Part shown: positions 13,201 to 64,000 of the stretch, piece by piece | Numbering within the stretch: the stretch's first letter is position 1 | Layout of the letters: every line of letters starts with the position of its first letter | Assembly (NCBI GenBank): GCA_050084515.1 | Contig: CM114271.1 | Span: 36,208,001 to 36,272,000 of the forward strand | DNA length: 64,000 bases | Reading direction: 5' to 3' | From: Blasia pusilla | Taxonomy: Eukaryota | Program-made: the position numbers and the translations under genes | Notes under the pieces: model-generated | The model's database searches: none | What the model was told of the DNA's origin: nothing | What the model saw: the letters and a program-made list of their open reading frames with translations, nothing else

Positions 13201-13408
13201 AACTCACAAAAGTCAAGGCATGACAATAGATACAAAGTGTCTCCTTGTTATAAAAGCAACATTTGTTCCTGGCCTTGTTTACGTAATGCTCTCTAGGATG
13301 AAGACAAGGGAGAACCTCCGAATCCTTGGATCAATCTGCCCATTGGACTTATGTGTTTTTGGCGAGAGGAATATAGATATAACCAAGCTGTTATTGCGGA
13401 CAATATGA
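10230..13408 (+). pseudogene. Helitron Rep-helicase (HUH replication initiator + PIF1-like SF1 helicase), multiply frameshifted
   Basis: FPFLFPYQRG; WGMRSFFLTLTS; HUH-like (GSI)HAHIILW at ~11310-11345; Walker A GPPGCGKT (~12250); IDKCSML; LVGDLCQLPP; FPLILAYAMTTHKSQGMTI and GLVYVMLSR. Confidence 0.9.
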
Positions 13409-16400
13409 CTGGGTTTAGCATTGCAAGCAACGATAGCTCTGCAAAGGGTCGGGGAAGGAGACAGCCTGTTCCTGTTGTTTCGAATAATGTTGCAGAAAGA
13501 ACACCTATACCAACTGCACATCAAGGTGGAACAATTTTCTTAAGTGACAGCAGCTCCGATGAAAAGTAAAAAGTAATGCCTACTCAACCTCCGCTACCAC
13601 AACAACATGACCAGCATGCACAAAACACCAATCAGGTTTGTATAAACTCATTACCTGTCAATAGCGTAAGTCTTTAAATGACTATCGCTAACTTAACTCA
13701 ATCAGGTACCAAGATCATATCTTGATTTTGCCAAGATGATACTCAATGACATGCCTGAAGGCCCATAGGACAACCCTCCTCAGATTGTTCCACCGACAGA
13801 TGCCCAATTAAAGTATATTGGGTTGTTGGCATACGCCCAGTACGATTCATCAATGGTACTGGGTAGGAGATATCTCAAGTCGACAAATGGGCTGACTCAT
13901 TGATCAGCAAAAATCTTGGGCAATTCTTTTGAGAGAGAAGAAGAAACAACCACCTGCAACAGGCCAGCAGTGCATACTACTTTTTTGTGTTGTTTATGTG
14001 CAACATTACGTTAGTGTTTCACTATAAGTTATAATTCTTATCCTACTCTGTGTTTAGGAATTCAGAAAGAGATCATGACTTTCAAGGGAGTTCCATTTGA
14101 TGAATCTATCCTTCAAGGCAGAAGGCTTCTACCCACTATGCTAGGCTCACAAGTGGCATAAAGTCAGATCAATTCAAGAAACTGAGACTTATGATGAAGC
14201 TTCCCATTGACTCCTTATGGACCTCTCATTTGCTAAGGCTATGCACTTGTTGTCGAAACTTTGAGATGCACGAGAAGATGGAGTGCTCTCTGTTACTCCT
14301 GATAGTGACTAGCATAGCATTGCTGAGGGCCAATTCTTAAAGCATTTGGAAATTCGTACATGGTTGGCGCTACTGCAACTCGTGCATCGTTTGTGAACAT
14401 ACAAACCCCTAGTAGATCTTATGAGGGACCACTTTTGCCCGAGTCACCAAAGAAGAGGAAGTGTACTTGATGTTGGTACTCCAGTATGTCGATTGCCCTC
14501 AGCATGTTGCTTTACTACAGATTTTATTCAAGAACGTCTTCTTGACTAATTTTCTTGGCTGTGAACATGCAAGGCCAACATCCTCGATGTCCTGAACTAC
14601 CTGCTTCTCTAATGTTGTATAAGTAGTAAAATTTTGTGCTCGGCTCTTCACCTATCATTTTAACTAAGCCATTATAGCTATGTTTCATCCCGAGTAGTAT
14701 AACTACTATCCACTTGCAGTAGTGTACTAGCACTACCTTCTTCATAATCTTCTCTTTCCAATTATGCAGCACTCCCGAAGTTTTCTTCCTCTGTGTACAA
14801 CCTTCCTTTTTGTGGGCATTATAGATCTACTTAATATCTTCCACCTGTTTCATTGAGTATCTATTTCAATCTATCTGCTACAAATTCTCTTGGTCATTTA
14901 CTGCTGGTTTATATGTGAATTATATCAATGCTTGATATTTAAACTGACATTTTTCTTAACCTTGGTTATCACTTGTCTCAATGTTACGAATTTTCTCCTT
15001 TACGACAATGATTATGCTTATTGCTTTTCCTGATGTAGTCTATTATTGTATCATCAACTTATGAATTTGCACTCTGATTGCGCTCATCATACTTGGCTCT
15101 CTCTGAACTTTCTATTCCTTTCACTTGTTGTTCATTCTGCACCCCTACTTGTACATATGTTTCCTCTTCTGTAGTTAGTCCTTGTGCAGACTTGTGTTAT
15201 TCTAAACCCGCCTTTGAATTTCTCTTCTTTTATGTTGCAGAAAAATAAGTAGGCTTGCTCTACAACGAGTGACTATCGCTCGCTGGCCAACAACATGGTT
15301 AAGTCTTCTCCTGCCAGATCCAGGAAGTAGCTATATGTACATCATGATGTCAATCACGAGACAATTGACAAGGAAGCCCGGTCGTCGACAATGGTTCCAT
15401 TGTCTGTGTTCAATACAACAATCAAGAACATCAAGATTCTGCAAGAATAGATCTCCAAAATAGATATTAGGAATAAGACTCTTAATCACGTCTTACGTTC
15501 CATAAGTGAAGATCAGGGTCCCAACTTCGCCACTATACTTATTTTACAAGGAAAAATCAATGAAATGAATGAGGTGATTCGTCTTGTAGCGAGTTATTTT
15601 TCGCGACAGGTATCCAAATGATAACATGCTCACTGCACACATTCTCAATCTAGAAACAATTTTCTCTGCAAAGTAGGTTCAGTGTCCACATGCTTGCCCA
15701 ATAAACTCTTCTTGCTCAGCATCAATTTTTGGCTTAGTTTGACTATTTAAGATGTGTTTTTTTTTTTACCGAGTGATTGTGTCTTCATACACTTACTCCG
15801 CTGTAGTTGATACATCTTATTCTATGTGAACTTTCATCATTAAATTGTTGTAATCTTTTCCACATTTCACTTTGCCTGTCATTTTGAAACTTCATACTGA
15901 CTCTAACTTTAAGTTAACACATTTTTATCTTTTGCAAAACACACACTTATCATTGTTTCTGTGTATTCCTCCATGCACAATTTTTCATTTTTTAACGTAA
16001 AACTTTTTGTCGACAGTTAATACTTGCACTTTGTTAGCTATAGACCGGTAACATAGGGTTTCTCTTCTCTTGGCCACATTCTTGTTGTCACTTCATTAGA
16101 ATTCTTACTTCTTGCCATTCATCTATCATCATATTTCCAAAGATATTGTTGTTGTATGTCAATAACAACCTATATGGTATGGAGAACCTTGCACGCACAT
16201 TCTTGGTCCGACGTGTCTCACAAAATTCAATAGTTATTTCAATTATTCTGCTAGCAAAATTATTTTGTGCACTTTTATTTCGACTATGTTCCTTGTGCAT
16301 GAACTTGCATTACTTTAATTCAGACCTTGGTTGTTCAATATTCACTTCTCATCAACTACTCTTCTCGGTATGTTCGGTTCGTTTGAAATAGTTTCCAAGT

Positions 16401-16676: not shown

Positions 16677-16999
16677 TACAAGGCTATCTTACGTAGGGAA
16701 CTCTGGTAACCCTGAATGGCGGACGCAGACAAGAAGTCGCGGAAACGGAGGCGTAACAGTGCCACATGGTTATTTTCAACTTAGTTGGTACATCTCAGCC
16801 CATTGGCTCATTTTCCATTTCCTATTTTCATACTACTATATTATTGCAACTACTTTTGACTTGTCATAGATCCCCACATATTTACATGTTAGGGATACAC
16901 CTACAATGATGTGACAGTAATTTTTTTGTTCTCACTTTTTACCGAACGACCCTTCTCAACATGTTCACAACTTGATGACGGCTTTTCAGGGCCGCATTC

Positions 17000-30416: not shown

Positions 30417-30639
30417 AACCGACTAGTCGGTTGAAGGTGTTCAAAAAAGATATTCCTTCAAGGTGTCGAACCGGACTTGCTTTTCCGTCTCGTTTCATTT
30501 CTCTTCTACTCTGGAACTCCTAGCTATGTGTGGTGAGTCTTATAGGTAGAGGGATTTCCCACATCATGATAGAGGGTCGGGGGCGCCTCTGATTCTTTAG
30601 GAGGCACCTAGGATTAGCGGATATATGAGCTAGACAAGC

Positions 30640-30835
30640 GATAGAGTGAGCCATGGTGGAACCAGGTGTGGTGTTGTTGGACAGATGGAGTGGCATGTTC
30701 TACTTAGTTGGTCCTATAGGTATGATGTACCATCCGCCTTGCGTCTTACTTGATTTGGAAGCACAACCCTTGATGTTAGGGAAGGCAATGTGTTTGGCAT
30801 TAGGGTTACAGAAAGGTGACATTAAGCCTTGCCCT
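30640..30835 (+). pseudogene. Retrotransposon aspartic-protease fragment
   Basis: VVLLDRWSGMFYLVGP...PCVLLDLEAQPLMLGKAMCLALGL...IKPCP; LLD(S/L)(G/E)A corresponds to a decayed D-S-G-A retroviral-type protease active site. Confidence 0.6.
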
Positions 30836-31359
30836 CCCATCTCAAAATTTGGACTACATACGTCAATTATGTCAACTTTCTTGGATTACACCAAGGAACG
30901 GGGAGATCCGAGGTTACGAGTAATCTTGGTGGCCATTTTGGATATTTTTTACTGTAGAAAATATTTCCCGGTTGGGTTTCTGGTGGGTTCGAGACAAGTT
31001 TCGGTTGTCTACATGAATGGGATTGCATGTCGAATTTGGCCTGGATACCGCCATAGCCTAAATGGAAGTTGGTGTTGGGTCGTGAAAGACATCAGATGAG
31101 ATTTTTATGGCAACGAAGAGTCTCCGAAAGATTTCCAAGAGGTTGTCCCACTCCCGAAAAACCGAGAGGCTAGGATCATAGAATCTTGGAATCTCGGAAT
31201 CTCGGCCGTCCATGTAAAGTTGTAAACTACCGTTACTACCCTAAAGTGCATTTAGAGAAGATGCTATGGGGGGAATCCCGAGAGAGGGGGGCCCAAGGGG
31301 GTTCTAGGGTTGGCGGAGGCTTGGCTGAGATTCGCAGTCAATAAAGTAAGATCCAATCC

Positions 31360-31690
31360 CTCTCTACACCATCTCACACCATAGCTCTCAAAGGTGTGCA
31401 CTCTCTCTCATGTCAAACCAAACTCACTTTCCTAATGAGAGGCTTGGGTTACACTCACAAGGCAAGAGACTATAGCTCCGCCTCCTCATGCCAAGAGGTT
31501 CAACGAGAGAGAATGAGCTCTCAAGCTCTCTCTCCTTGAGGTATACCCCTCCCCTCTTCCAAACTCTCTCCATGGTAACCTATTCTCCCAAGTCACTTCC
31601 TTGGCTCTTGATCTGATATAGGAGGTCAAGGGCCACTTACCAAAAATAAAGTCGATCATATATTCAAAATGGTATTTACCTAAAATAGTT
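31360..31690 (-). repeat. Dispersed LTR-like repeat; other copies at ~53690-54035 (same orientation) and ~41700-41990 (inverted)
   Basis: Long colinear similarity, e.g. tgtcaaaccaaac...ctaatgagaggcttgg...ccaagaggttcaac...cacttaccaaaaata...tacctaaaatag. Confidence 0.9.
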
Positions 31691-36823: not shown

Positions 36824-38948
36824 TCACGCTTTCAAGGTATCATTGAAGAAAATCTGCAAGTTTCTCTGCGTCGTGCCTCCCTCTGCCACAGTCGCAGCAA
36901 GGGCATTGGCCAACTCGAGCGAGTTTTTCCTTATCCGCTGTCCTTCCTCCTCGATCATGAGGCACCTCACCGCCCTTGCGATTCTGTCCTTGTCGACCTT
37001 GCTGTCATCCGCTCCGTTTGTGACAGCTACACCCACCTTCTTCACATCCACGATGAATCTGTACTCCGAAACAGACCAAGCGCTAAAGATCAGAGCGGAG
37101 TTCCAAGATGGGGACCGTCGATCATGAAGGAATACGTCACAAACAGCGATCGGTACTACAAGAATTTAATATGCAGTCCGAGAGTTTCTTGACTGAGCTC
37201 CTCGGGAGGTTGAGCTGCAGCTCACATTTGGCACTGAACTCGTAGACTTGCGAGGAAATGCGCGACAGGAAATAGTTGGAGCCTAATCTTACCTCGCATT
37301 GAAAGGTTGATCGGCACACAAAGGCCATGTGATCATGGGAATCCCCGCACACAAGCTCTCCAAGGTGGAGTTCCACCCGCAGTGCGTCAAGAAGGCACCG
37401 GTGGCACGGTGCTTCAAGATCCTGGACTGCGGTGCCCAGCCCGTTTCGATATAGGCTCGATCTTTCACTCGTTCTAGAAAGCCAGGGGGGAGCACCGATT
37501 CGAGGAGGTGGGGTGGGACTTTGAGAACCCACAAGAAAGGAACTCCACTCTCCTCCAGCCCTAGAGCCAGAGTAGACATGACTCCTTGGCTCACATTCCC
37601 CAAGCTTCCGAAGGCGATGTACAGTACGTTTCTCTCAGGCTGCTTGTCCAACCATCTCAAGCACTCGGATGGTGAGTCTTTTAAGCCGTATAGGACCCCG
37701 AAACCTGGAAATTGCACCGAGGGACCGAAAGGCAAGACCTTCGTCACCTGTAGAGAATGATCCGAAGTGGCACTGTTAGAACACTAATCCTCATGCGTCA
37801 TCCACTCTAGCGGAATGCGACAGCACCCTACCGCTGGCCTTTGAGAAATCTCTCTATCCGCAGTGAGACAGACCACATTGTTAGGAAGGATTGCTTCGAA
37901 AAGAGATCGCAGCAGCGTTCATGGAGCCAATTAGCAGTGGAAAGCTTCTTCCTGGTCCTCAATCAGACGTAGGATCCAGTGTCGTGATAATACCTTGCCA
38001 TCATCGGCTTGGGCCCTCTGCTGCACCAGGTCTCGGATGTGATCTAGCGAGCCGGTTCCGACAGCCATTTCTTCAGCACAGTTGACCAAAATCCCCGATG
38101 CCTTCAGCGAGCGATCGGAAACAAGCGCATAAAATTCGTGAAACTGGAGAACCTCGTGGGGAATGTCCCGTATTTCTCCAAAACCGACTCCTGGGATGGG
38201 AACTTTCTCGCTCAAGTCGGGCCAGGTCTCGGGATTCAATCCCTCCTTGTGAAGTCTGGGGCCTTCCAAACAGAAGACTCCAAACCATGGGCCCGTTGAG
38301 TACAGAACGTACCAAGGGATTGACAACTCATCCGCGAGGTCCTGCGCGTATGTCAACGACGAGGGAATCATGTGAGTCAGAAGCTCATTTACCTTGTGGC
38401 AGTCACGCAGAAACATTTGTCACTGCACAGAGTAGTAGTGCAGTATTCACACCAAATTCTGCCGTTAGCGTTGCAAACAGAGATTCGTCATGTGCTTCCA
38501 CTACTGCAGGTATAGACTGTGGTCTACCGTTCACATCTCCAGGCTAGATTGAGGGACCACGAACCTTTGTCCACCACAAGAACATGTCCGCGACGATACA
38601 CGAAGGTGCTCCGACATCATTCTTGCGTTCGATCAACCTCTCCTTGACGGTGGCGAACTCAATCTGATTGGCGTCGCTAGAAAGTGCAGCCCGGACTGGG
38701 AACTTCGGGTCCGCTTTGTACACTGGAGGCTCACCAAAGACTGATTCCAAATGTAGGTCCATACCTTCGAAATCACCCCTCTGTTGTAGTTCGGAAAGTT
38801 CGGCTATGCGTTTCCCATTCCCTATAACCGTCAGAGTGAAATTCTGGAAGCGGCGCATTTGGTATATGAGTTGGACGAACGGAGCGAAGTGCCCTGGAAA
38901 TGCCATGGTGATCATCAGCACATGAGGCCGACTCCTGATTTCCACCAT
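36824..38948 (-). CDS. Family-1 UDP-glycosyltransferase, 473 aa; exons 38948-38565, 38341-37994, 37747-37293, 37058-36824
   Basis: N-terminal PHVLMITMAFPGHFAP (catalytic His), SCIVADMFLWW (Asp), VLYIAFGS, and a full PSPG box WAPQSRILKHRATGAFLTHCGWNSTLESLCAGIPMITWPLCADQ; GT-AG introns; frame intact (1422 nt). Confidence 0.95.
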
Positions 38949-41479
38949 CTTGCGAACTACAAATGTCACCCTCGCTCTGCGGGGACTCTACCCAAGCCCT
39001 TGCAATCGTTAACAATCCCCAAGAATCACCTGCGCGACCTCCAAGCCCTTCTCTCTTCTCAGGACGATCAGAAGAATAGAGACGCAGCCAGTGGACACCC
39101 GATTACGCTCCCTACTCCCTTGCGTCTGTGTGTGTGAGGGCGCGCGCGCACATGTTATATGCCGTCGACTCCCTTTTCCTATCGCCCTTACCGGATGCAA
39201 ATCGCGATCCGGCCTACAAGCATAGGGATGCGCCTTAAAGTGCCTTTCCCTGCGTTCCCACTGCGATTCCTCCCGCGTCGACTGCCGGTCCACCCTCACG
39301 ACTAATCACATCCTCCTAAAGCAGTGTTGATTTGATCGTCGAGAAGCCAGGGACGCGAGGGAAACAATCACCTCCTTCTACACAGCTGCGCATACAGGGA
39401 AACAAAACAGTCCTCGGAAAGTCCAAAACCGTTCCATCGTAGAGCTAGCTACCTACCTGCACCCACCAGCGCTTCTGCCAAGTGCGAGGTCGAATCTCGC
39501 GGTTCCTTGCGAACTTCATCAACTACTTACCCTGCCCAATTCACGACGACGGAGACTTTATAGAGCAGCGGAGAATCTGGCAGTTCTCGCCCCACAGGTC
39601 CATTCCATTCCTGCCCCACATGGTCTGCTGTTCCGGGTGCTGTGCTCGTCGTGGTGACAAGATCGAGCATTCTTCACTTTGTTGACCTCAAACTCCAAGT
39701 CTCCAAATCGAAGGATTGGGGGCGTGTGGGATGTGAACTGGAAGAATCGGAAGTGGAGTTTTAGCGATGAATGGCGACCTGTTACTGTTAAAGTAGGGTT
39801 ATAGTTTAGTGTGAATGTTTCTATGTTGCTGTCGATGTAAGCCAACTTTTAGGAGGATATAATTAGTGGGTTGTCCCAAAAGGATGGTGGTAGGTTTGGT
39901 TGTGGGTAAAACGAAGAACATTGTCTTTAGGTGCGTTGTCCCAAAAAAAGACGGGTGTACATAGTCTTAAGCATACCGAGAAAAGATATCGATGAGGTTT
40001 CAAGAAATAAAAAATCAAATTCCTAAGGGTCTTCTAATTTACGCATATATTTCTCTAGATAACTGACTTGATTTCCTCATTTGGGACTAGAGTCACACAA
40101 ATTGTTTCCTCTTTGAAATTATTTCTTTCTTCTCTCGAGACAAACGATCTTTTTTTTCACTCGTAGTTTATTATGCCCCAACTACGATCACTTCTAGTTT
40201 ATTATGCTTCAGCCATGATCCCCAAACGCCTTTGGAGGCCTCCCACGCAGATCGTGTCCTCCCCCACGCAGGGTCACACGTGTTCACTTGGAATGCCATT
40301 TCCTCTCCCAAAGTCCCACTTCCACAACAACGACAATGATCGCAGTCGGCAAGCAAACAAATCTAGATTTTTTTTTATTTTTATTTTTTTTTCCAACATA
40401 ATACCATCAAGCACGACCCCCGTGTCCGCGTTTGGCGTCGATCTCCTTGCCAGGCTACTCTTCCAGCAAAGTTTGTCTCGTGTGACGTAGGCCTCGCAAG
40501 ATTCGTCGGTCCCATGTGCGCTAATGTTCGTGTCGCTGAGCTTTTCGCGAGTTCGTGAATTGGAAAGGAGAATGATAAACTTCAATAAAAACGCTTGATG
40601 GGAAACCCATCGAAGATGCAAAAGAGAGCCAAAAACATCTTTCTTCTGAAAGGAAAGAAGGCGGGGCCTTTCCCCCTATCGACCAAACTCGGAAAAGGAA
40701 GCTACCGATCGATCCGATCCCATCCATGGAGTTTCTCATGCGGACTCTTTTTGTTTTGCTTGATGGCCTCCGTAATGCCCTGGGTTACGCTCGCAATCCA
40801 GTTTGCATTGGACTGGAGGAGCCCCAATTAATAGCGAGTTTTCGGGGTACTATGCGGTCCTCTAAATATCTCTCTATAGTATAGAAAAGTTTGTGGGTCT
40901 GTCAAGATCCGGATTCTCAGAATACGCTGAGTTCGTTTCCCGAGCCATTGAACCCCGACGGGTTTACAACACAACACTCCAAGAGCAAGTTCAGATCTGG
41001 CACGGTGCGAGCGAGCCTGTGGTGGATGACGTGGAAGTTGAAGCCAATAGGGACCCTACGGAGAGGCAGGGAATGTCGGAAAGGTAGTGGGCTACAACGA
41101 CGTAAGGGAAGTCCTCATGCTGGAGGAACAGGGATAGGGAGATCCCTAGGGAGAGGGCACAAGGTCGCGGATAGCAATAGTGCTCCGAGATATTTTTAAT
41201 GTGTATTTATGCGTTGTGTGATCTTCTTTTGTGATTTTATGATGCATTTATGTGTTATGCATTTACAACCGGAATCTAATGGTAATGCTTTCAGGAAAAC
41301 AAATCATGTGGGGCTTCGATATTAGGTGAGACTTGCGTTAGTTATCTTGGAGAATACCTTAGAAATCGTATACATTATAGATGTTAATTTTTATATTCCA
41401 TCGTACCAGAATAAAGGTCTTCGTCACGTTTTATGTAGTGGAGTGGAGAATATATGCATACGTATAGGGGGAGGTAAGA

Positions 41480-42340
41480 TCTTGGTGCAAGTAGGTTGAG
41501 GATGACTTGGTGACGGGATGGGTAACTCTATCGTGTGTACGTTACCCCTATTATGAGCTTATTTGGAACGATTTTTAGAAACTTATCATTTTGGTAAAGT
41601 CTCTATTTTGTGCTTGAGTGTTCGTTCCCCCTATTATGAGTTTATTTGGAGCGATTTTTAGGAACTTATCATTTCGGGAAAGTTCTCTATTTCGTGGTGG
41701 AAACTGCACCTTGACCTACTATTGCATGTTAGCGTTGAGATGATAGTTTATTTGCACAAGTTACCATGGAGAGACCTTGGGTAAGGGAGAGAGGATGCAT
41801 CCAAGTAGGGACAACATGGAGAGCACATCGTCACTTTCTTAAACCTCCTTCCATGAGGTGACAGAGATATTGTGCTCCTTTTCTTATGAGTAATACATGC
41901 CTCTCACTATGAGAATGAGTTTGGTTTGACTCTAGAGAGCATTTTGGAATGTGAGTGTGTGCTTTGATATGAGAGAGAGAGAATTGAGAATTCATTTCTA
42001 GTCGACGGAAAACCCAATTGGCATGTGTGATATCGACGTCACATTTGACAAACAACTTCACATCAAGATTTTCAAACATTCAAACATTTCTATTTGAGAT
42101 TCTCATGGAGGATTTTTTTTTCAATTAAGGCTTAGATTTTTTTTCTAAATTCGTGACAAGTCACCCACATATGAAAGGCACATAAGGCGTACTCTCTCTC
42201 AAGCATGGATCATCCATGCCCTTGGTAGGGGACGCCCTTACCTTAGGGTTCATACCAGACCCTAGTGTCCAAGGGAAGAGTTGAACCGCATACCTCTTTG
42301 AGAGGATCTTAAGTTAGTGTAGCTAACATCCTCGTCATCT
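41480..42340 (+). mobile_element. Inverted copy of the 3' region/LTR of the methyltransferase-bearing element, with an internal ~80-bp tandem duplication at ~41540-41700
   Basis: agtaggttgaggatgac (~41490) matches the reverse complement of ~54115-54131; 41700-41990 matches the reverse complement of 53690-53975. Confidence 0.6.
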
Positions 42341-44999: not shown

Positions 45000-47430
45000 G
45001 TGTAAAGATTACACGTGGGTCAATGCAAGTCCTGCATGGGCTAGTATGTGCTCAATGGAGGCCATTGGGTGCTAGAAAATGGGTGGCAACTATGCCAACA
45101 CCTGGCGGCGGATCACTGGGCTTGGGTGCAGGTAGGCTGAGTTCGGGTTTATATTGAGGGCATGGCGCGACAAACCTTGGTAAGGAGACAAGGCCAAGTG
45201 AGGATTGGGGTGTGAATGTAGATACAAGAAACTCCAAGAAGTCAGAAGCTAGACAAGAGGCACGTAGCAAGTATATAAGAGGTACAAGGGTTGCAAGAAT
45301 TGAGGGGTCGAGGGCTAGGTATGACATTGAGGGCCGTACAGATCCAAGTGAGGGAAGAGAGAGCCATTGGGGGTAGGGATCAAGCTTGGGTGGAGAGAGA
45401 GAATGGGTTTGGAGCCCTAAGTGGCCAGGCGTCCACAAAGTTGGACACGAATATAGGAAGGACGGAGTTGGAGCCGTGGTGAGGATTAGTTGGGTCACGT
45501 GGTAGGAGGTGGTAAGTTGGGTTGAACGTGGTTGATCCAAGCTACATGGTATCTAGGCTTGGATGTGATTGTAGGCATGCTACATAATCAATTGAGGGCT
45601 ATGGCCGTGATAGGGTAAAAGGAGCCACATAACCTCCAAGGTGAAAGGAGGTGGTTGTGAGAGACTTGCTTCAATTCATGGGATTTGAAGTTTCTGAATG
45701 GGACGTTGATTCATGACGAGATGCGCCAACCCTGTGAGAGTTATTGATAGTATTTTGAATCATTATTACGGTGCCAATCGAGGTTGAGATGGATGATATG
45801 CATCCACTATTTGCAACGAAGTGCTAGAGATGGAAACATACGTGCTAATGCCGATGGGTAGTCCGAATCTATTGAAGGGAGGTTCGATGTGTGTTTTGAG
45901 GAGATTGTCATATTGGAGAGATTTCTGCATCACATTGAGTAATCAATGTTGATTGTGCATTAGAGTGATGGTATGCGCGTTTAGATTATCCATTCGAGTC
46001 CCTTTTTCCGTGCTTGTCTTATTTCATTTAGGGTGTTAGGTATCACCTAGAGCTGGTCCTAGATGGATGTAGGATGATGTCGAGAATAGACTTCTTACAC
46101 GTGTAGCATGTTTGTGGATACAATGCAGTTTCTTGAGTAGGGATCTTGTGTATGACCTGAAGTTGTTGATATGCTCAAGTAAGTTAGTAAGAAATGCTCA
46201 AGGGTGAGCTCAAGTGATTGAATATGCATAAGGTCGGGTATATCATGAGGGGATTAGCATTAGCATTAGCATTAGTGAGCTAGTGAGGAGTGTGGGAGAC
46301 TCTGGTGAGACTATGGTGAGTCAGAGTCAGGCAAGATTGTTATCATGAAATTCTTCTAGGGTTCAAAAGAACGGGGTAGTTCGAACAGTGGTAGTAGTAT
46401 TACGCAGAATGGAGTAAGATACTGAGGGATTTTGAGTGAGGAACCACCTTGACTTCCATCTGTGGCTGGATCGCTATCATTAGATAGTGGGTGATATCAT
46501 GAGATTGCAGATAGAGAGACATTGTGACGTGGGGAAAGATGGACGACATGAGTCACAAAGGCATGCGTCGCTACTCAAGTGCAACAAGCACCATTCATCT
46601 CGATGACTTCATCTAGGATTTTGATATATGGTGTGACTTCCAAGAGATGTGAGCCCCCACATCATTCGACCCTTTCATGGTGTGGAAGGGTTTGTTCGCG
46701 TCAAGTAGTACGACGTCCATAGAGTTGGACATAAATATAGGAAGGACGGAGTTAGGGTCGTGGTGAGGGTTAGTTGGGAGACTAGAATGTGATGTTTGGA
46801 GGGTGTATTGGGCTCTAGGATATATGCCCACTAGTGGTTGTGAGGCATATAATGGAGTAGTGAGAGTAGTTAGGCCCACACCATTAGCCTAGGGATTAGA
46901 TGGAGATGATAGAAGTTATGGCGGTGAGGTGGGAAAGATCTTGGCTGATAGAGGGTCATCTAGTTTTTTTCCTACAATGGAGTTCTTCCAAGAGTTGGGG
47001 AGGTGCCACCCGTGCATGTGAATTGACAAGCTAAAGAATCTACAAGAGTTTCACTTGAGATGAGGTGAGAGTATACGAGAGGTGTTCATGTCCATGCGCC
47101 GATTGATCATTCCTACTCACGAAGTAATTGAGTATTAGTACAAGGTTCTAGATGAAGAGCTGCAAAGGAGAGTTTGGGATGGGATGTTGCTTCACATGGT
47201 GAAGCCTACTTTGAAGGGGGTTTTCCAATAGTCTAAGTAGATTGAGCTTCCTATGAGTGAGGAGCATGTGGTGACCACAAGATTTCCACAAGAGTCAAGG
47301 AATCCACGGGTATCAATGGTCCTATAGGTGCCCGAGAGCCACAAGCGCAAGGCGGTGTTCCCAAAGAGTAGGGAAATTATCCTAATCCCATGAGGAAATG
47401 GCTCGTAATGAGATATGTTGGCCAACAAAG
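45000..47430 (+). mobile_element. Decayed retrotransposon 5' region with a gag remnant (~46950-47300) and an internal ~60-bp direct repeat (~45430-45495 / ~46715-46778)
   Basis: IDKLKNLQEFHLR*GESIREVFMSMRRLI...VLDEELQRRVWDGMLLHMVKPTLKGVF resembles a retrotransposon gag helix region. Confidence 0.55.
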
Positions 47431-53367: not shown

Positions 53368-56100
53368 TGTCTCGTGGACAAGCTAACTCATGATTACCAC
53401 ACCCTTCTCATTACCCTCCTAAATTCCTAGTCGGGCGCCACATGGGGATAAGGTACTCATGCACCATGGCCCCGTGAGTGTCAAAGCCTAGATCAAAAGT
53501 GCCAAAGCCAAGACTTTGATAGTAGTGAACAAGAAGATGCGAGTATCTATATTGCTTCCAAAAGAAAAAACTAATAAACCTAGATATTCTGGACATGCTA
53601 AACCTTTTCCTTGCACCTCCAACCCCTCTTCCACTCTCCGCCTATCCCTATCCCTATCCCCCATTACCAATTACTCTAATTTGTCACCCATCACAACTCA
53701 TTTCACAACACCATAGTTCTCACATGTGCGCACTCTCACATGTTTCTCTAAATGTCAAACCAAACCCAGTCTCCTAATGAGAGGCTTGGATTACACACAC
53801 AAGGCAAGCAAGACCATAGCTCTGTCGCCTTATGCCAAGAGGTTCAACAAAGAGAGAATGAGCTTTCAAGCTCTCTCTCCTTGAAGTATACCCCTCCCCT
53901 CTCCCAAGCTCTCTCCATGGTAACTTATGCTCCCAAGTCACCTCCTTGGCTCTTGACCTGATGTAGGAGGTCAAAGTCCACTTACCAAAAATAGAAAATC
54001 GACCATATACTCAAAATGGTACTTACCTAAAATAGTAAGTTCCTCAATATGGCTCCAAATGAGCCAAAACGAAGGGGAAACCTGCTCTCTCAAGTTTCCC
54101 AGGACCTCAGCAGGTCATCCTCAACCTACTGAGCATGTCCTCCACTACTCACAAAGGCACTCTACTAGATCTCACCGATCTATCCTAAAAGACGTGACAG
54201 ATCTCCTCGGATCTCATCACCTACCATTGCCAATATTGTCTAGATACGCACGAGACTAACAAGTATAATAGACATGACTTATTGCAACCGTATCCGAGGT
54301 TGCTTAGCTACTCCCAAGCTAAGAATCCATGTCAAGAAGTTCAAGTCCAGTGCCTAACCCAAGACATGACATCGAGAAGCCTATGATAGTAATAATATTT
54401 TTGTTACTCCCGTGAGGAATCCCATCACACCCTAAATGCCCTCCCTCATCAATGTTGGGCTCCATCAACCATTGTGCCTAGTCATCCCAAACCAAGCCAA
54501 AATTGGCCTCCTTATATACATAGGAAGCGAGGAAATTCACAAAGGTGTGAAAGGCTGTCCGTGGCATGTCAACCCTGTTGATCACTATCAATAGAGGTCC
54601 ATCATTGTGCCTTATTGCTTCTGATGGAGGTCCACAATCCAGAATGGAATCCATCAAAAAATTGGAGGGACATTGCATTCTTGCATACATCCTCCTCAAA
54701 ACCTTATGTGGCACTAAGTCAGTCCACCACAAACGGGGACAGTGTACTTATGAACCTACACTTGCCATATTAAAAAAACACTGTTGGGTTTATCTATGCA
54801 CCAACCTCATATATACTTGTCACAACTTGTACCCAAAAATCATCCAAGATTAGTACATTCTCCATAATGTAAGTTGGAGAATAGGATTGATGTTCTCTTG
54901 CAAGTTTTGCAAGATCCTCATCATCTCCCAAAATAACATAGACCTATAGAGTCAACTAAACTATCACCTCGTCTAGCACTCAACTACTTCACAAGGCCAA
55001 ATTTCTTCGACCAAATCAATGATCCGCATTGATCCAAATCCTATGCCCCCAAATACAATAAGGAAATGTTCCTCGATAAGGAACTATAGTAACCTTGTAT
55101 GGCCAACGTGGGTAACAAGTTGGGAAAAAGAAGGCACAAGTGCTCCAAAAATTGGAGTGAGACATGCCTCGTAACCTCATCACGCTCCATAGAGAAATCC
55201 CAATGGGCACTCACTCCTACATACAATATAGCGACCAAACTAGTGCTGATCCCTCCAAAGAGAGATTGATGTATCCATCTATTGTCTTGCTATACTGCAG
55301 CTAACCTCCATGTCGATCCCTCCAAAGAGATCTTACACTCTCGCACCCTTCTCTAGACGTTTCCATATAATAAGTGTGGTATCCTAGGATATCAAGTCCC
55401 CACTCTAAGAGCAAAATTTTCACTTGACTTTATTTGCTCTGGTGACTCCACGCTTGCCTCACGAGCTTGTCTATACTTCTTTGCATGTCAATGCTCATAT
55501 GCTCAATGTTGAAGTGGTCTCTGCACCATGGGAATAGTTACCCACATGGCAACGATTGATGGCATGTGCGTCTCCATGGGGGATGCCCGTGCGGGCCAAC
55601 CGCGGGCCCCAAGGATACCTTCTATGGGCCTTGCGGGTTGGGTGCGAGCTTGGAACCCCCAATGCGGGCCTATCTCAAGCCCTCTACAAGCCACTGCGGG
55701 ATGGATACAAGCCTACATGGACTTAGTGTAGACCTGACTAGCCCTTATATACCACACACCCGTTCGATCTGTGCCCACACTCGTTCCCGTATCTCGAGCC
55801 CATGAGGGCGATTCAGGTACCAAAATTAAAAAACTTGGGCGGAGGACTCGTTGGGCATGCATCCCATGGATGGAAAAGTCCATTTTCATGAAACCTTGCA
55901 TGCATATGGCATGTCTCTCCATAGGAGTATCGCCTATCCACTATCGACATGTCCTCTTTATATGTGCTCCCCTCTAGAAACTTCCTTACTAGCTACTCAG
56001 TACCTATGAATATTGCCAACGTGGTCACGACATCACTTCGTGAACTGCCACCACGCCCTACAAACCACATATGTAAATGGCTCACTTATCCATGACCTAA
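53368..56100 (-). mobile_element. 3' portion of a retrotransposon-like element carrying a C5 cytosine methyltransferase domain; boundaries approximate
   Basis: Intronless methyltransferase remnant followed by the multi-copy LTR-like repeat (54035-53690) and a candidate ...GAGACA end at 53368. Confidence 0.6.
54279..55270 (-). pseudogene. C5 DNA cytosine methyltransferase domain (DNMT3-like), complete motif set, disrupted by stops and frameshifts
   Basis: Motif I LFGGISTSL (55262-55236); II MERD; IV IDLVEEIWPCE (WPC 54999-54991); V RSMLFWEMMRIL; VI TYIMENV (ENV 54862-54854); VIII ASVGS*VHCPRLWWTDL; IX EPNIDE...MGFLTGVT; X VLG*ALDLN (54362-54339). Order and spacing are canonical. Confidence 0.88.
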
Positions 56101-56299
56101 CCGCCATCCTAGTCAATAAGCAACCATTTTCTCTCAGAAATTGAGGATAAAACCAAGTGGATGGGCTACAACTTCGAACTACTTACCAACACATCATAAG
56201 ACTTTGACGGTGTTGTAATTGCATGAGTGCATACCATTGCACCCTCTAAGAACTCTAATTTAAGTGTAACAACTACCTTTTGTTGAGTCATGAACTGTA

Positions 56300-57050
56300 T
56301 GGGTGACATGGCCTCAATAGAGGTCTATATGTGAAAAAAACATTTTTGCAAGTGGAAGTACCAATAAAATTCGAAAGGTGACTGTGATTGGAGTTATTAG
56401 CGTAATGAGCATTCTTTAACATATGAGACAACAGGTACTATGGGAAGTGTGAAAAAGCATCCATATGAGGCGAGACTAAACATTGATCATCCCATAAAGA
56501 ATTTTCCCAATCTGGAATCCCGATGTATGGCCTAGAGTTGGATGCAAAATGGATGAAAATGTTCCTAGCATGAAGGTCAGTGTAAAGAACCCCACGCTTG
56601 TGGATAGTCTGCATGGTAATAAGTAGAGTAACCACAAGTTGGATGATATTTGATGCCATTGCAAGACATCTGATCTTCTGCAACTCTCCTAAACTTGGCC
56701 CTCCGTTCAAGGTATGGCATGCTTGCATCCAATTTTCAAGATGCCCACCATTCTACTATGGATAGATGGCACGCGGTGGATTTTCAATCATTCTTCCCAC
56801 TATGAGAACCATCCCTCAATGTAAAATAGTTGCAAACATCTCTTCATGCATCATTGATTATCTTGAATATAACCAAGATGCTTCCTTAAACACCTTCACG
56901 CAATAGTAAATATCTTCACTAAATCCAAGGGTTTGGTTTACTTTAAAACGATACATGGTTCCGAATAAAACTGAGCCTAAAGTATCCTCAAGATCATGTC
57001 CTAGTACTACATCCTTCTTAAAAATCCACATATATCCATGTGGCACTACC
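56300..57050 (-). pseudogene. Decayed intronless protein kinase domain
   Basis: LGSVLFGTMY (Gly loop), YYCVKVFK (VAIK), NGGHL, IHKRGVLYTDLHARNIF (catalytic loop), IGIPDW (DFG equivalent); internal stops. Confidence 0.75.
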
Positions 57051-59915: not shown

Positions 59916-62900
59916 CTTTCTCTCTGAAGAAATGATAGTGTACCTCAACATGCTTTGTACGAGCATGAAACATAGGGTTATTATCAAGTTTGATGCTACT
60001 AATATTGTCTGCATATATTATACTAGGTCCTAAGTTACTAACACCAATCTCAACAAGTAATCGATGAAGCCACAACGCCTCACATGCTGCATTGATTGCT
60101 CCTCTGTTTTCAACCTCTGTTGAAGATAAAGCAATTTTAGGTTGCTTCTTTGAAGCCCAACTTATAACTACGCTTTCAAAGTAAATGAATAACTAGATGT
60201 GGAGTGTCGATCAGACACGCTTCCTGCCCAATCAGCATCTATGAATCCTTATAATTGTAAACTCACATAAAGTTCAAATTGAAGCCCGAATTGAAGAGAA
60301 TTTCACATACCGCAAAATCCTCCTCACAGCATCAAGGTAAGGTTTTCAAGGTGCTTGCATAAATTGGCTCACAAGGCCAACTACATAGCTCAAATCTGGC
60401 CTGGTTATAGTCAGATAGATCAAACTTCAAACCATGAGCTTGTACATATTAGAATCTGCAAGCAACTCTCATTCATCCACTCTTAGCTTCACACTCTGGT
60501 CCAACGGTATAGAGATTGGCTTACAAGCCGTCATACCATATTTTGAAAGCATGTGAAGAGCATATTATCGTTGTAGTAACCACATGCTCTCTCCAACCTT
60601 GATAAACTCAACACCAAGGAAGTACTTGAGTTCTCCCAAGTCCTTCATATCAAATTATGCTTGTAATTTTAGCTTGACTTGTTGTACTATATCCTCAGTA
60701 CTCCCAGTAATCAAGATATTGTCAACATACAACACAATGATATCCGTATGATCTTTTCCTCTCAAGACATATAATGAGGAGTCAGAATCACATACCCTTA
60801 CATCCAACTCTTGTAGGACGTATGTAATCTTGCAATACCAAGCTCTTGGAGCTTCTTTGAGCCCGTATAGAGATTTCTTCAACCTGCATACGCGAAATGG
60901 AAACTCGGGAAGCTCATATCCAGTTGATTGAGTCATATAAAACTCCTCATATAGATCTCCATTCAAGAAGGCATTCTTGACGTCCATGTAAAGTAATCTC
61001 CACTTTTTACTTACTACAACTGCAACCATTGTTCTCATAGTCGCCATCTTTGTAATAGGGCTAAATATTTCCTCATAATCGATGCCATATTATTGTGCAT
61101 AGCCCTTAGCCACCAATCTTGCTTTGTACCTGTTAACTGCACCATCTAAATTGCGCTTGATTTTGTAAACCTATTTACAACCAATAGCTTCCTTACCGGA
61201 AGGTATATCAACCATCTCCTAGGTCTGTTGATGTCTTAATACAACAAGCTCTTCCTCCACAACTTCAATCCATTCAACTTTCCTTGCGACACATCATATA
61301 TGCATGTTATGTCGCAAGAAAACCTTCATTTATGAATCTATGAATAGGATGTGTGACTCGATTTGATCTAAAAAGTTATTGTTCAAAGATAGATGCCTCT
61401 CACACTTGACTCGAGCTCTAACTAGTGTCAACACACTGAATATGTACTCTTCTTGTCCATGAACTCATACATTTAACTGAAGAATCTATGACCTCTCCTA
61501 ATCCTATACTAGTGCTTAGAGAATCTGAAGGCAATATCTGTTGGTTTACAATCATATTCTCTCCCTCAATAGACGAGTTTAGATATGGAATAGGCTCAGA
61601 TGGAGCATACCATGACTTTAGTTTATGAAAGATAATATCGCGACTAATAATAAGCTACTTAGAGGATGGAATTTAGCACTTATATCCCTTAGTTCCATCA
61701 GCGTAGCCAATGAATAAACATCGTAGGAAATTCACTTGACGTTGGATGCCATTCTGACGTAAATAGTCATCAAACTCTGTTGAAAGATATTCTCCTCCTC
61801 CATAACAACGCAATTTCAGAATATGTTCTCCAGTCTGCTTCTCTACTAGAACTCTTAATGTTTGGAACACTGAGAATACCTCTGACTTGGCTTTCACAAA
61901 GTATACCCATATCTAGAGAAGTCATCAATAAATGAAACAAAGTATTGGCAACCACTAAGGCTATGTTGTGATGTTGTCTATACATCATTGTGGATTAACT
62001 CCAATATCTTGGATGATCTTCTATCTTGCTTTTGAAAAGAAAATCTAACTTGTTTTCCAAATTGGCAGCAGGACATACCTCTAATGTAGCAGGGCTCGCT
62101 AATTTAGGAAGTCATATTACTATATTAGATGATAAAAGACTATGTAATCTTTGAAGATTCATATGTCTAATTCTCTTATGCCAGACATTTAGATCTGTGA
62201 CTTGTTGGTCGGTTAGACCATACATTGCTGTTTGAATCTCTAGCATAGAAACATCTAATTTGAACATTGTGCCAGATCTAGTTCCTTTGGCTATCGCAGT
62301 CTGGTCATCCATTGTTTTAATGAAACAACCATCTATGTTAAACTTCACTTGATAACCCTGTTCTTCTATTTGTTCTACAGAGATCAAGTTTCTTGCAATG
62401 GTAGGAACATAGAGAACATTTCCAAGAGCACAAAGACCATCTGATGCTATTGGAACTTTACTGGTATGCGTGATATGATGGTGAGTGTCATCTCTTGTGA
62501 GCACAATTGCAGGATCTTTCTCTAGCTCCATACTACTCAACCATTTAGCTTGAAAGGTCATGTGATTTGATGCACCACAGTCAATATACCAATTTGTTTT
62601 CGAGTCTTTCTTGACCATTGCTCCCATATGATAAGTCATCACCAAGAGATACTCAGTTTGTGAATGTTGTTGTTCTTGGTACTGTCCTTGGTGTTGTTGC
62701 TCCACATAGTTTTTTTGTTGTAAGGCTCATATTCTCATATCTGCCTTCTTCTTGAAGCAAAATTTTGCATAGTGATCCTTTATCCCATAGTATTTGTAAG
62801 ATCCAAGGACTCTCTGTTGTTGACCTTGATCCCAATGGTTTCCACCATGACCACCTTGTGATTGTGTCTGGTACTGATTCGTAGTTGATTGAGTGACATT

Positions 62901-64000
62901 GTATTGAGTGCCTCTTCCTCCATATCTTTGATATCCATCACGACCACCAAAGCTTCTACCACGACCCCTACCTCTATTTGATCCACAACCTGCAAATAGC
63001 GCATTCTCTTGTAGGCTAGACAAGCTACCACTGCCTACTAGGCACATCTCTTCACTGATTAATAGTGGGACTTACTCTTGAAAGATTGGATACTTCTCTC
63101 TCAAATAAATAGAGGTCTCAAAGGATTTATAATCCTTTGGAAGGCCTTAAAGAGTGAAAAAAATCATATCATCATCTTCCATTATCACTCCAATGCTATT
63201 CAATTGATCAACAATATGTCAGATGCTCAAAATATAATCATTGATGCTCTACGATCCTTTCCTCACTTCGTTCAATTATTGTTTCATTTGAAGATTTTAG
63301 CCTTCTTAGATCTCTGGAACAGCTTTTCCAATGCATCCGAGGCTTCTTTTGGAGTATCAAAATCTTGAATATAACCTATCATTGGTGAACTCATCGTTAT
63401 TGAAATGTAGTGGATTACTTGCCTTGCACGTTTGTTCCAAGCGCGAACATTCAAGTTTGTTGAGTGACCTTCTAGCTTGGCCTCATCTCCTGTGACAAGC
63501 TCCCATAGTTCTTGACCCATGCAAAATTTTTTCAAACAAAACTTCTAAACATTGTAATTCTGCTTATCTAGCTTCTCGCTTTTGATTGTTGTTGAGGAAC
63601 ACTCCAAAACAAACGATTTCACTCACAAAAACGTAATTTCAGATTCCCCACTGCTCCAATTGAAGCATAGACCGCACCTACATAGAAATCGACCTAAAAT
63701 TTGCCAAAATTGATCAATTGTATGAAAGAACTAGTCGACATTGGCCCATAGAGAGCAAACTGCACAACTTTTCTTCACTAATTGCACTTTCTTACAGTGA
63801 AACTACTACTGCATGAACTCAGAATGTCATAATCAAGCGATTTTGGATACGTTGGAAAGCTCTCGACGAGCTCTAGAAGATGGATTTTAAAGACTTTGAC
63901 ATCATTTTGACATATACGGACCCAAATGGCTAAATCGACCGGGAAAGCCCTCAAAAATGCCTCCAAAGTTTTATCATCGTCAAGGCTCCACCTAAAATCT

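What the first reader, a model, noticed from the sequence alone, without database searches (positions are those of the whole stretch)
54279..55270. Cryptic, complete C5 DNA methyltransferase domain embedded in a retrotransposon-like element
Seen: translating the minus strand through stops and frameshifts gives, in canonical order within ~1 kb and without introns, LFGGIS (SAM-binding motif I), E-x-D, IDLV...WPC (catalytic Pro-Cys), RS-LFWE, YIMENV, GS-x-x-H-x-PRLWWT, EPN-x-DE...MGF and LG-x-ALDLN. The ORF track shows only two anonymous fragments of it. It is followed downstream by a repeat found three times in the window. Established: this motif set defines C5 DNA methyltransferases, and the WPC / H-x-PR-x-W / LG-x-A-x-D pattern is DNMT3-like rather than MET1, CMT or the permuted DRM. 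Retrotransposon-borne DNMTs have been reported from dinoflagellates and charophyte algae. Inference: this land-plant genome hosted a retrotransposon family encoding its own cytosine methyltransferase, possibly to self-methylate new copies or modulate host silencing. This copy is dead, and whether the family is already described in this lineage cannot be judged here.
Basis: partly seen in the sequence, partly recalled or inferred. Interest (0 to 1): 0.88.

Follow-up and report, generated by a model that had tools for sequence, protein, structure and literature searches.

The report
Dead methyltransferase relic of a retrotransposon
A liverwort-like plant genome holds the decayed remains of a jumping gene that once carried its own DNMT3-type DNA cytosine methyltransferase, a kind of element so far described in a charophyte alga and in dinoflagellates.

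Summary
On the minus strand, 55265-54300, a whole C5 DNA methyltransferase domain (motifs I to X, in the normal order, no introns) can be read in five pieces. It is broken by four frame changes and eight stop codons.

Pfam does not see the pieces. A profile of relatives hits them at E 3.6e-32, and the X-joined read-through aligns end to end with uninterrupted relatives at E 6e-74.

Those relatives sit inside Ty3/gypsy-type elements ordered gag, protease, DNMT, RT/RNase H, integrase, PHD. One is a Klebsormidium nitens protein with the same gag-protease-DNMT order. By sequence profile and by fold the domain is DNMT3-like.

In the window, half a protease lies upstream on the same strand. Separate gag and protease relics lie at 46.6 and 30.6 kb. 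No RT or integrase of this family is left.

The nearest named relatives are liverwort proteins, and the neighbouring UGT gene is most like liverwort UGTs.

The downstream repeat is real but is not shown to belong to the element.

Verdict: a dead relic of a Gypsy-DNMT3 retrotransposon, a new member of a known kind. I found no report of it in land plants.

The parts
54300..55265 (-). Decayed DNMT3-type C5 methyltransferase domain, motifs I to X. It reads in five segments with 4 frame changes and 8 stops.
   Evidence: The X-joined read-through aligns over residues 2-312 with L017 at 43.7% identity, E 6e-74.
55300..55383 (-). The linker just before the DNMT plus a duplicated motif I (a second LFGGI string). 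It is a short internal duplication.
   Evidence: tblastn with the L029 ORF, residues 60-87, E 0.007. It is collinear with the main hit. The three-frame translation also shows it.
56133..56363 (-). C-terminal half of a retropepsin-like protease, upstream of the DNMT on the same strand. It contains a stop.
   Evidence: The protease profile hits it at E 1.5e-6 for the domain. The L005 ORF, residues 127-205, gives E 1e-6. P0115 gives 7e-5.
30629..30901 (+). N-terminal half of the same kind of protease. It is a separate relic on the other strand.
   Evidence: L029 and L005 ORFs, 47% identity, E 1e-19. The protease profile gives 5e-9 for the domain. It overlaps the 56.3 kb piece by about 30 residues in query coordinates, so the two are different copies.
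46617..47294 (+). Gag relic of the same element family, with several stops.
   Evidence: L007 gag-region ORF, residues 1-205, 30% identity, E 5e-23.
16703..16780 (-). Tiny piece resembling the stretch after DNMT motif I. Marginal.
   Evidence: L029 ORF, residues 111-136, 58% over 26 residues, E 7e-5. Eight ORFs hit this bin.
53708..54130 (.). Dispersed repeat R just downstream of the DNMT relic. Other copies lie at 31376-31689 and 41490-41938. It is not shown to belong to the element.
   Evidence: blastn self-comparison and alignment A3. There is no tblastx or blastn match to the 80 related loci.

Best explanation
This is a pseudogenised fragment of about 2 kb (56363-54282, minus strand) of a Ty3/gypsy-type retrotransposon of the 'Gypsy-DNMT3' kind.

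In intact relatives the gene order is gag (CCHC knuckles), aspartic protease, DNMT3-like methyltransferase, reverse transcriptase/RNase H, integrase, PHD finger. The termini are split direct repeats (A1 ... B1-A2-B2). The methyltransferase is therefore made as part of the Gag-protease product. It would presumably methylate the element's own cDNA or DNA near the insertion. That last step is inferred, not shown.

The window's copy keeps only half of the protease, the linker and the whole DNMT domain, all riddled with stops and frameshifts. It has lost RT, RNase H and integrase, so it does nothing today. Further gag and protease relics in the same 64 kb show the family once had several copies in this liverwort-like genome.
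For: Shown by calls:
- The relic matches the family profile only at this place (E 3.6e-32 and 6.7e-16). It aligns end to end with uninterrupted relatives (E 6e-74).
- Of 19 hits scanned with Pfam, 16 carry PF00145 at E<=0.001, 15 of them above Pfam's cut-off. The long ones also carry RT, RNase H, integrase and PHD.
- In 80 related metagenome loci the protease precedes the DNMT in 66 and RT/RNase H follows it in 61. Most of the rest are cut by contig ends, and 1 has RT before the DNMT.
- L001 is intact. Its first ORF of 1369 aa has protease and PF00145 at 51 bits. Its next ORF of 1047 aa has RT, RNase H, integrase and PHD.
- In the window a protease half lies upstream on the same strand, as in the family. 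Gag and a second protease relic lie elsewhere.
- In a tree of 91 DNMT domains the relic groups with Calypogeia fissa and Marchantia polymorpha proteins (support 1.0), inside the protease-DNMT type (0.99).
- The Marchantia fragment is 66-70% identical to DNMTs flanked by protease and RT in the loci.
- A K. nitens protein (GAQ93235.1) has CCHC, protease and DNMT in the same order. It aligns with the read-through over 319 residues at 27% identity, E 2.5e-24.
- DNMT3-likeness is supported.
- CpG observed/expected is 0.32 in the DNMT part against 0.61 for the window. This fits past methylation, though 966 bases is a small sample.
Against: - No RT, RNase H, integrase or terminal repeat of this family is detectable anywhere in the window. 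The retrotransposon context here rests on the protease half and on relatives.
- Pfam does not recognise the window's pieces.
- No host DNMT3 of a plant was available for the tree. The separation from host DNMT3 is therefore argued from context, not from a rooted phylogeny.
- Methyltransferase activity of Gypsy-DNMT3 has not been demonstrated. The K. nitens domain gave no methylation in yeast, which the authors call inconclusive (PMC5890265, section 10).
- Most relatives are dead too. Only 8 of 72 full-length DNMT matches in the loci are free of stops.
Confidence: 0.9

Rival explanations
1. It is a processed pseudogene of the host's own DNMT3 gene, retro-copied and decayed, with no link to a transposon.
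For: It has no introns and is DNMT3-like. Land plants outside the angiosperms are said to keep DNMT3 (passage in PMC12344493 citing Yaari 2019).
Against: - It is closest to DNMTs embedded between protease and RT.
- The stretch just upstream of motif I and the protease half match the transposon polyprotein in the right order and strand.
- The family-specific strings shared with the relic are those of the transposon clade.
Confidence: 0.03
2. It is a decayed copy of a host gene that had been domesticated from a transposon DNMT. That is, the liverwort clade would be a co-opted gene family rather than transposon debris.
For: The Calypogeia (258 aa) and Marchantia (406 aa) relatives are annotated as open proteins. 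They cover motifs VI to X without stops.
Against: - Both lack the N-terminal half of the domain, including the catalytic Pro-Cys motif, and have no Pfam hit. They look like fragments.
- The window's copy still has protease sequence upstream.
- Gag and protease relics lie nearby.
Confidence: 0.04
3. The fragment did not decay in place. It is a piece of a Gypsy-DNMT3 element that was moved or reshuffled by another element or by rearrangement, for example an inversion that split one copy into the 30.6 kb and 56.3 kb protease halves.
For: The two protease halves nearly abut in the protein coordinates of distant relatives and lie on opposite strands. A PIF1-helicase (Helitron-like) relic and a copia element are in the window.
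Against: - With closer relatives the two halves overlap by about 30 residues, so they are two copies.
- The gag relic at 46.6 kb does not fit a single inversion.
- No shared flanks were found.
Confidence: 0.05
4. The motifs are a chance pattern found by reading three frames through stops.
For: Pfam finds nothing in the pieces.
Against: E-values from 5e-24 to 6e-74 in independent searches, with hits only at this place in the window.
Confidence: 0.005

Closest known systems
KnitGypsy-Dnmt3 of the charophyte Klebsormidium nitens (de Mendoza et al. 2018, PMC5890265; I read the abstract and sections 9, 10 and 11)
   Same: - Both are intronless DNMT3-related domains inside the polyprotein of a gypsy-type element.
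- A K. nitens protein among my hits (GAQ93235.1) has CCHC, protease and DNMT in the order seen around the relic.
- Relatives of the relic have split direct repeats. The paper describes DIRS-like repeats on an element with gypsy domains (legend of Fig. 4).
   Different: - Only 27% identity to the K. nitens protein.
- In the tree the K. nitens sequence sits in another branch of the protease-DNMT group.
- The host here is liverwort-like, and this copy is dead and truncated.
- I could not confirm that GAQ93235.1 is one of the published copies, because the supplements are closed.
Unnamed gypsy elements of chlorophyte algae with RT, RNase H, DNMT, integrase and PHD (proteins of Haematococcus lacustris, Scenedesmus sp., Monoraphidium neglectum)
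   Same: They have a homologous DNMT3-like domain and the same RT/RNase H, integrase and PHD set.
   Different: The DNMT sits after RNase H rather than after the protease. Identity to the read-through is 23-26%. They fall in a separate part of the tree, though that split has weak support (0.42).
SymbioDIRS-Dnmt3 of Symbiodinium (PMC5890265)
   Same: A retrotransposon-borne DNMT3-type domain. It is the only case with shown de novo CG methylation (section 10).
   Different: It sits on a tyrosine-recombinase (DIRS) element in dinoflagellates and is an independent capture according to the paper. It was not compared by sequence here.
Host DNMT3 enzymes (DNMT3A/3B/3C of mammals as solved structures)
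   Same: They are the best profile matches (E 1e-19 to 1e-20). They are also the best fold matches (E 1e-18, TM-score 0.75-0.80 normalised to the target). The motif order is not permuted.
   Different: About 22-24% identity. No PWWP or ADD domains are present. The domain is fused to gag-protease instead.
DRM (plant domains-rearranged methyltransferases)
   Same: They are second-best in the profile search.
   Different: The DRM matches cover only part of the profile (positions 99-237). The relic has the unpermuted order I to X.

Membership tests
C5 cytosine DNA methyltransferase (Pfam PF00145) | Conserved motifs I, IV (Pro-Cys), VI (Glu-Asn-Val), VIII, IX and X in one domain | tested here: met
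   All are readable on the minus strand in order, across three frames. They align column by column with relatives.
C5 cytosine DNA methyltransferase (Pfam PF00145) | Significant PF00145 score | tested here: not met
   For the window's own pieces: 0 of 5 open fragments and 0 of 3 frames read with X. Relatives pass: 15 of 19 are above the cut-off, and L001 ORF1 scores 51 bits. The five-piece read-through could not be given to Pfam.
C5 cytosine DNA methyltransferase (Pfam PF00145) | An open reading frame that could make an enzyme | tested here: not met
   4 frame changes and 8 stops in 312 positions.
DNMT3 family | Closer to DNMT3 than to DNMT1/MET1, CMT, DNMT2 or bacterial enzymes | tested here: met
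   At family level, DNMT3A/B/C score E 1e-19 to 1e-20, DRM 8e-12 to 1e-8, HhaI/HaeIII about 1e-7, DNMT2 above 0.3, and no DNMT1 or CMT chain appears at E<=1. Every fold match shown through rank 49 is DNMT3.
DNMT3 family | Unpermuted motif order, unlike DRM | tested here: met
   Order I to X along the strand.
DNMT3 family | Placement inside the DNMT3 clade in a phylogeny with host enzymes | not tested
   No plant or animal host DNMT3 sequence was available as a stored protein. PMC5890265 (section 9) reports this placement for the K. nitens copies.
Ty3/gypsy-type LTR retrotransposon | Gag with zinc knuckle, aspartic protease, then RT, RNase H, integrase in that order | tested here: inconclusive
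   Met in relatives. In the window only a protease half lies next to the DNMT, with gag and protease relics elsewhere and no RT, RNase H or integrase.
Ty3/gypsy-type LTR retrotransposon | Two identical long terminal repeats | tested here: not met
   The window has none around the relic. Relatives have about 300-base repeats 8.4-9.8 kb apart in 7 loci. With a second repeat pair these form A1 ... B1-A2-B2 in 4 of the 7, and the 3' end alone is seen in 4 more loci. So the termini are split direct repeats rather than plain LTRs.
KnitGypsy-Dnmt3 lineage | DNMT3 domain within a gypsy polyprotein, with homology to K. nitens copies | tested here: met
   K. nitens GAQ93235.1 has CCHC, protease and PF00145 at 58 bits. 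It aligns with the read-through over 319 residues, E 2.5e-24.
KnitGypsy-Dnmt3 lineage | Same domain order as the published element (Fig. 4c) | not testable with these tools
   Figures and supplements are not held. Only the legend was read.

The most novel reading that the evidence does not exclude
The Gypsy-DNMT3 lineage was not confined to charophyte algae. It came onto land with the first embryophytes, or entered them early, and bryophytes carried retrotransposons that delivered a de novo DNMT3-type methyltransferase fused to Gag-protease. The few intact metagenomic copies may still be active in living bryophytes. These copies are 66-70% identical to the Marchantia fragment. In a few of them RT-integrase lies behind a single in-frame TAG. 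If so, transposon-encoded de novo methylation would be directly testable in a land-plant model group.
Probability: 0.3. Interest if true: 0.65.

Novelty: new member of a known kind. Interest (0 to 1): 0.45.

Why it matters
Retrotransposons that carry their own cytosine methyltransferase turn the usual host-silences-transposon picture around. In the papers I could search they are reported from dinoflagellates, one charophyte alga and, with a different DNMT type, Cymbomonas and Euglena.

This relic, together with liverwort proteins that nobody seems to have flagged, places the charophyte-type element in land plants. The search also showed that the family is large in green algae and in environmental DNA, with two different positions of the DNMT in the polyprotein.

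The copy in this window is dead, so the value is evolutionary. It marks a lineage to look for in bryophyte genomes. It also points to natural intact copies in which the still unproven activity of Gypsy-DNMT3 could be tested.

Tried and rejected
- **Pfam on the window's pieces.** Nothing relevant was found. The domain is too fragmented, so this is not evidence of absence.
- **Whole-genome census.** No genome is held for this window, so copy number could not be counted beyond the 64 kb.
- **Earlier scan notes.** There are none for this genome or this sequence.
- **Inversion idea.** With distant relatives the protease halves at 30.6 kb (+) and 56.3 kb (-) seemed to abut at one residue. That suggested one copy split by a 25 kb inversion. 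Closer relatives show an overlap of about 30 residues, the flanks share nothing, and the gag relic does not fit. Rejected in favour of separate relics.
- **Downstream repeat as an LTR.** It has no match to 80 related elements, one of the three copies is inverted, and its ORF has no Pfam hit. Membership of the element is not supported, and what the repeat is stays open.
- **TAG read-through as the family's rule.** It is present in L001 but in only 4 of 60 linkers. It is a feature of a subgroup only.
- **Nucleotide-level kinship between the window and the loci.** There is only one 168-base match, inside the DNMT, so the hosts of the loci stay unknown.
- **Names for relatives.** 30 proteins were looked up and 3 carried an organism name.
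- **Literature on land-plant copies.** Six searches and passages of five papers gave none.
Full report
**What is in the sequence**

The best path through the frames has five segments:
- 55265-55044 in frame -2
- 55035-54892 in frame -1
- 54883-54797 in frame -0
- 54786-54445 in frame -1
- 54428-54300 in frame -2

It contains four frame changes and eight in-frame stops, and no gap that would call for an intron. A second copy of motif I, with the residues that precede it, lies at 55383-55300. It is a short internal duplication.

Pfam does not recognise the pieces. None of five open fragments and none of three whole frames read with X at stops hits PF00145.

**Is it more than chance?**

Yes.
- One frame (54319-55083, X at stops) searched with phmmer against 1.84 billion representative proteins gave 106 hits at E<=1e-3 and 17 at E<=1e-10. 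The best was 5.3e-24.
- A profile of 15 shorter relatives (A1) hits the six-frame window only here: frame -1 at 3.6e-32 and frame -2 at 6.7e-16.
- tblastn with the relative P0006 gives three collinear pieces covering its residues 1294-1609, joint E 5e-28.
- After related DNA was fetched, the read-through with X at each break aligned over residues 2-312 with single stretches of metagenome loci. The best is L017, 43.7% identity, E 6e-74.

**What the relatives are**

Of 19 hits scanned with Pfam, 16 carry PF00145 at E<=0.001, 15 of them above Pfam's cut-off. The three without it are short fragments.

The long relatives are polyproteins of two layouts:
- RT, RNase H, DNMT, integrase, PHD (for example P0030, P0050).
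- Zinc knuckle, protease, DNMT, RT, RNase H, integrase (P0099).

I classed the 237 proteins stored by then with my own probes. That gave 105 as RT-DNMT-IN, 18 as PR-DNMT, 2 as PR-DNMT-RT-IN and 1 as PR-DNMT-RT. The rest are partial.

A profile search for longer proteins found 188 at E<=1e-5 among 7997 scored. The named ones are from the green algae Haematococcus lacustris, Scenedesmus sp. and Monoraphidium neglectum.

Of these, 310 encode a relative and 80 loci were kept.

In those 80 loci the protease precedes the DNMT in 66 and RT/RNase H follows it in 61. Most others are cut by contig ends, and one has RT before the DNMT.

L001 is intact. Its first ORF of 1369 aa has a protease and PF00145 at 51 bits. 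After one in-frame TAG comes an ORF of 1047 aa with RT, RNase H, integrase and a PHD finger.

Most copies are themselves dead. Only 8 of 72 full-length DNMT matches in the loci lack stops.

Seven loci have repeats of about 300 bases lying 8.4-9.8 kb apart around the element. In four of them a second pair gives the arrangement A1 ... B1-A2-B2, and four more loci show the 3' part alone. From memory, this is the 'split direct repeat' layout of some DIRS-like elements. de Mendoza et al. say of the K. nitens element that its repeats are like those of DIRS while its domains are those of Gypsy (PMC5890265, legend of Fig. 4).

**Which kind of methyltransferase**

The family profile finds DNMT3A, 3B and 3C chains at E 1e-19 to 1e-20. 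DRM enzymes come at 8e-12 to 1e-8 and only over part of the profile. HhaI and HaeIII come at about 1e-7 and DNMT2 above 0.3. No DNMT1 or chromomethylase chain appears at E<=1.

An AlphaFold model of relative P0011 (mean pLDDT 90.7) matches DNMT3A/B/C catalytic domains in every row shown through rank 49. The values are E about 1e-18, TM-score 0.75-0.80 normalised to the target, and 22-24% identity.

I had no plant host DNMT3 sequence to root a tree.

**The local context**

Upstream on the same strand, 56363-56133 matches the C-terminal half of the family's protease. The protease profile gives E 1.5e-6 and an L005 ORF gives E 1e-6. The residues just before motif I also match the polyprotein.

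The spacing from protease to DNMT is about 840 bases, against about 300 in relatives. Something has been inserted, or that stretch has drifted.

Downstream, where RT should start, there is no similarity to RT, RNase H or integrase of this family. None is found anywhere else in the window either.

Other relics of the family do exist:
- a gag piece at 46617-47294 (+), E 5e-23, with stops
- the N-terminal half of a protease at 30629-30901 (+), E 1e-19
- a marginal 26-residue piece at 16703-16780 (-)

I first thought the two protease halves were one copy split by an inversion, because distant relatives aligned to them end to end. With closer relatives they overlap by about 30 residues, and the gag piece does not fit. 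They are separate relics.

The repeat after the DNMT is real but has no counterpart in the 80 related loci. I do not count it as part of the element.

CpG observed/expected is 0.32 in the DNMT part against 0.61 for the window. This fits a history of methylation, but the stretch is short.

**Host and nearest relatives**

Of 30 relatives looked up, three carry an organism name:
- CAM6104272.1 of the liverwort Calypogeia fissa
- OAE24016.1 of Marchantia polymorpha
- GAQ93235.1 of Klebsormidium nitens

I built a FastTree of 91 DNMT domains. It started from 161 sequences, and 70 were dropped by a 60% identity filter. The read-through groups with the two liverwort proteins and three unnamed ones with support 1.0. 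That clade sits with protease-DNMT proteins with support 0.99.

The relic's branch is long, as expected for a pseudogene. The tree has no host DNMT3.

The Marchantia fragment is 66-70% identical to DNMTs that lie between protease and RT in the loci, so it too is transposon-derived.

The K. nitens protein has a zinc knuckle, a protease and PF00145 at 58 bits in that order. It aligns with the read-through over 319 residues at 27% identity, E 2.5e-24.

The UGT gene fragment at 37289-37783 is 59-65% identical to liverwort UGTs (Riccia, Marchantia paleacea, Plagiochasma, Calypogeia) and 38-55% to angiosperm ones. The window is thus from a liverwort-like land plant. I went no further in identifying it.

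**How it most likely worked**

Shown: the gene order in relatives, the DNMT3-type fold, and the conserved catalytic strings in most relatives. The Pro-Cys motif is found in 60 and Glu-Asn-Val in 60 of 72 full-length matches.

Inferred: the enzyme is made as the C-terminal part of Gag-protease and methylates the element's cDNA or its surroundings.

Published tests showed de novo CG methylation for the Symbiodinium DIRS version. They showed none for the K. nitens Gypsy version, which the authors call inconclusive (PMC5890265, section 10). For this window's copy the answer is simple: it is dead.

**Comparison with what is known**

The kind is known.
- de Mendoza et al. 2018 reported it (I read the abstract and sections 9-11).
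- A 2026 preprint lists the transposon DNMTs as Symbiodiniaceae, streptophyte Gypsy-DNMT3 and new DNMT4-like cases in Cymbomonas and Euglena (passages in 10.64898/2026.05.21.726589).

None of the passages I saw mentions land plants. Six full-text searches found no such report. The supplements are closed and may list some.

Noticed in passing
L001:5080-5095 (also L004 and two other loci): In the intact relative L001, the gag-protease-DNMT ORF and the RT-RNase H-integrase-PHD ORF are in the same frame, separated by a single TAG followed by CAG TTA. From memory, this resembles the leaky-stop context of tobamoviruses (TAG CAR YYA). Only 4 of 60 DNMT-to-RT linkers examined have it. Other relatives have one continuous ORF.
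   Followed up: partly
L022:6183-6475, 15215-15837 (similar in L049, L063, L073): Relatives with gypsy-type integrase have split direct repeats (A1 ... B1-A2-B2) instead of plain LTRs. This is an odd pairing of termini and enzyme. The 2018 paper also noted it for the K. nitens element.
   Followed up: partly
proteins P0030, P0050, P0167, P0171, P0173, P0183, P0199, P0237 and about 100 others (no window coordinates): A large set of gypsy polyproteins carries the same DNMT3-like domain between RNase H and integrase, plus a C-terminal PHD finger. The named ones are from Haematococcus, Scenedesmus and Monoraphidium. I saw no paper describing them in the searches I made.
   Followed up: partly
window 53708-54130, 31376-31689, 41490-41938: A dispersed repeat of about 330-450 bases occurs three times, once inverted, at 75-86% identity. 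It has no Pfam hit and no match to the DNMT elements. Its nature is unknown.
   Followed up: partly
window 56438-56752 (-): An open stretch of 104 aa lies directly upstream of the protease relic. It has a weak protein-kinase-like match (PF00069, E 6.5e-4, below Pfam's cut-off). It may be a pseudogene fragment that marks where the element is truncated.
   Followed up: no
window 12403-12807 (+) and neighbours 10340-13408: PIF1-like helicase pieces (PF05970, E 4e-6) in several frames. This looks like a decayed Helitron-type element.
   Followed up: no
window 60655-63071 (-): Copia-type element pieces: RVT_2 (E 1e-36), the Pol beta-barrel domain and the gag-pre-integrase domain. The ORFs are fairly long, so it is younger than the DNMT relic.
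   Followed up: no
window 37289-38987 (-): A UDP-glycosyltransferase gene lies in three open pieces in different frames (PF00201 on the last piece). It is either interrupted by introns or itself a pseudogene. Its closest matches are liverwort UGTs at 59-65% identity.
   Followed up: partly
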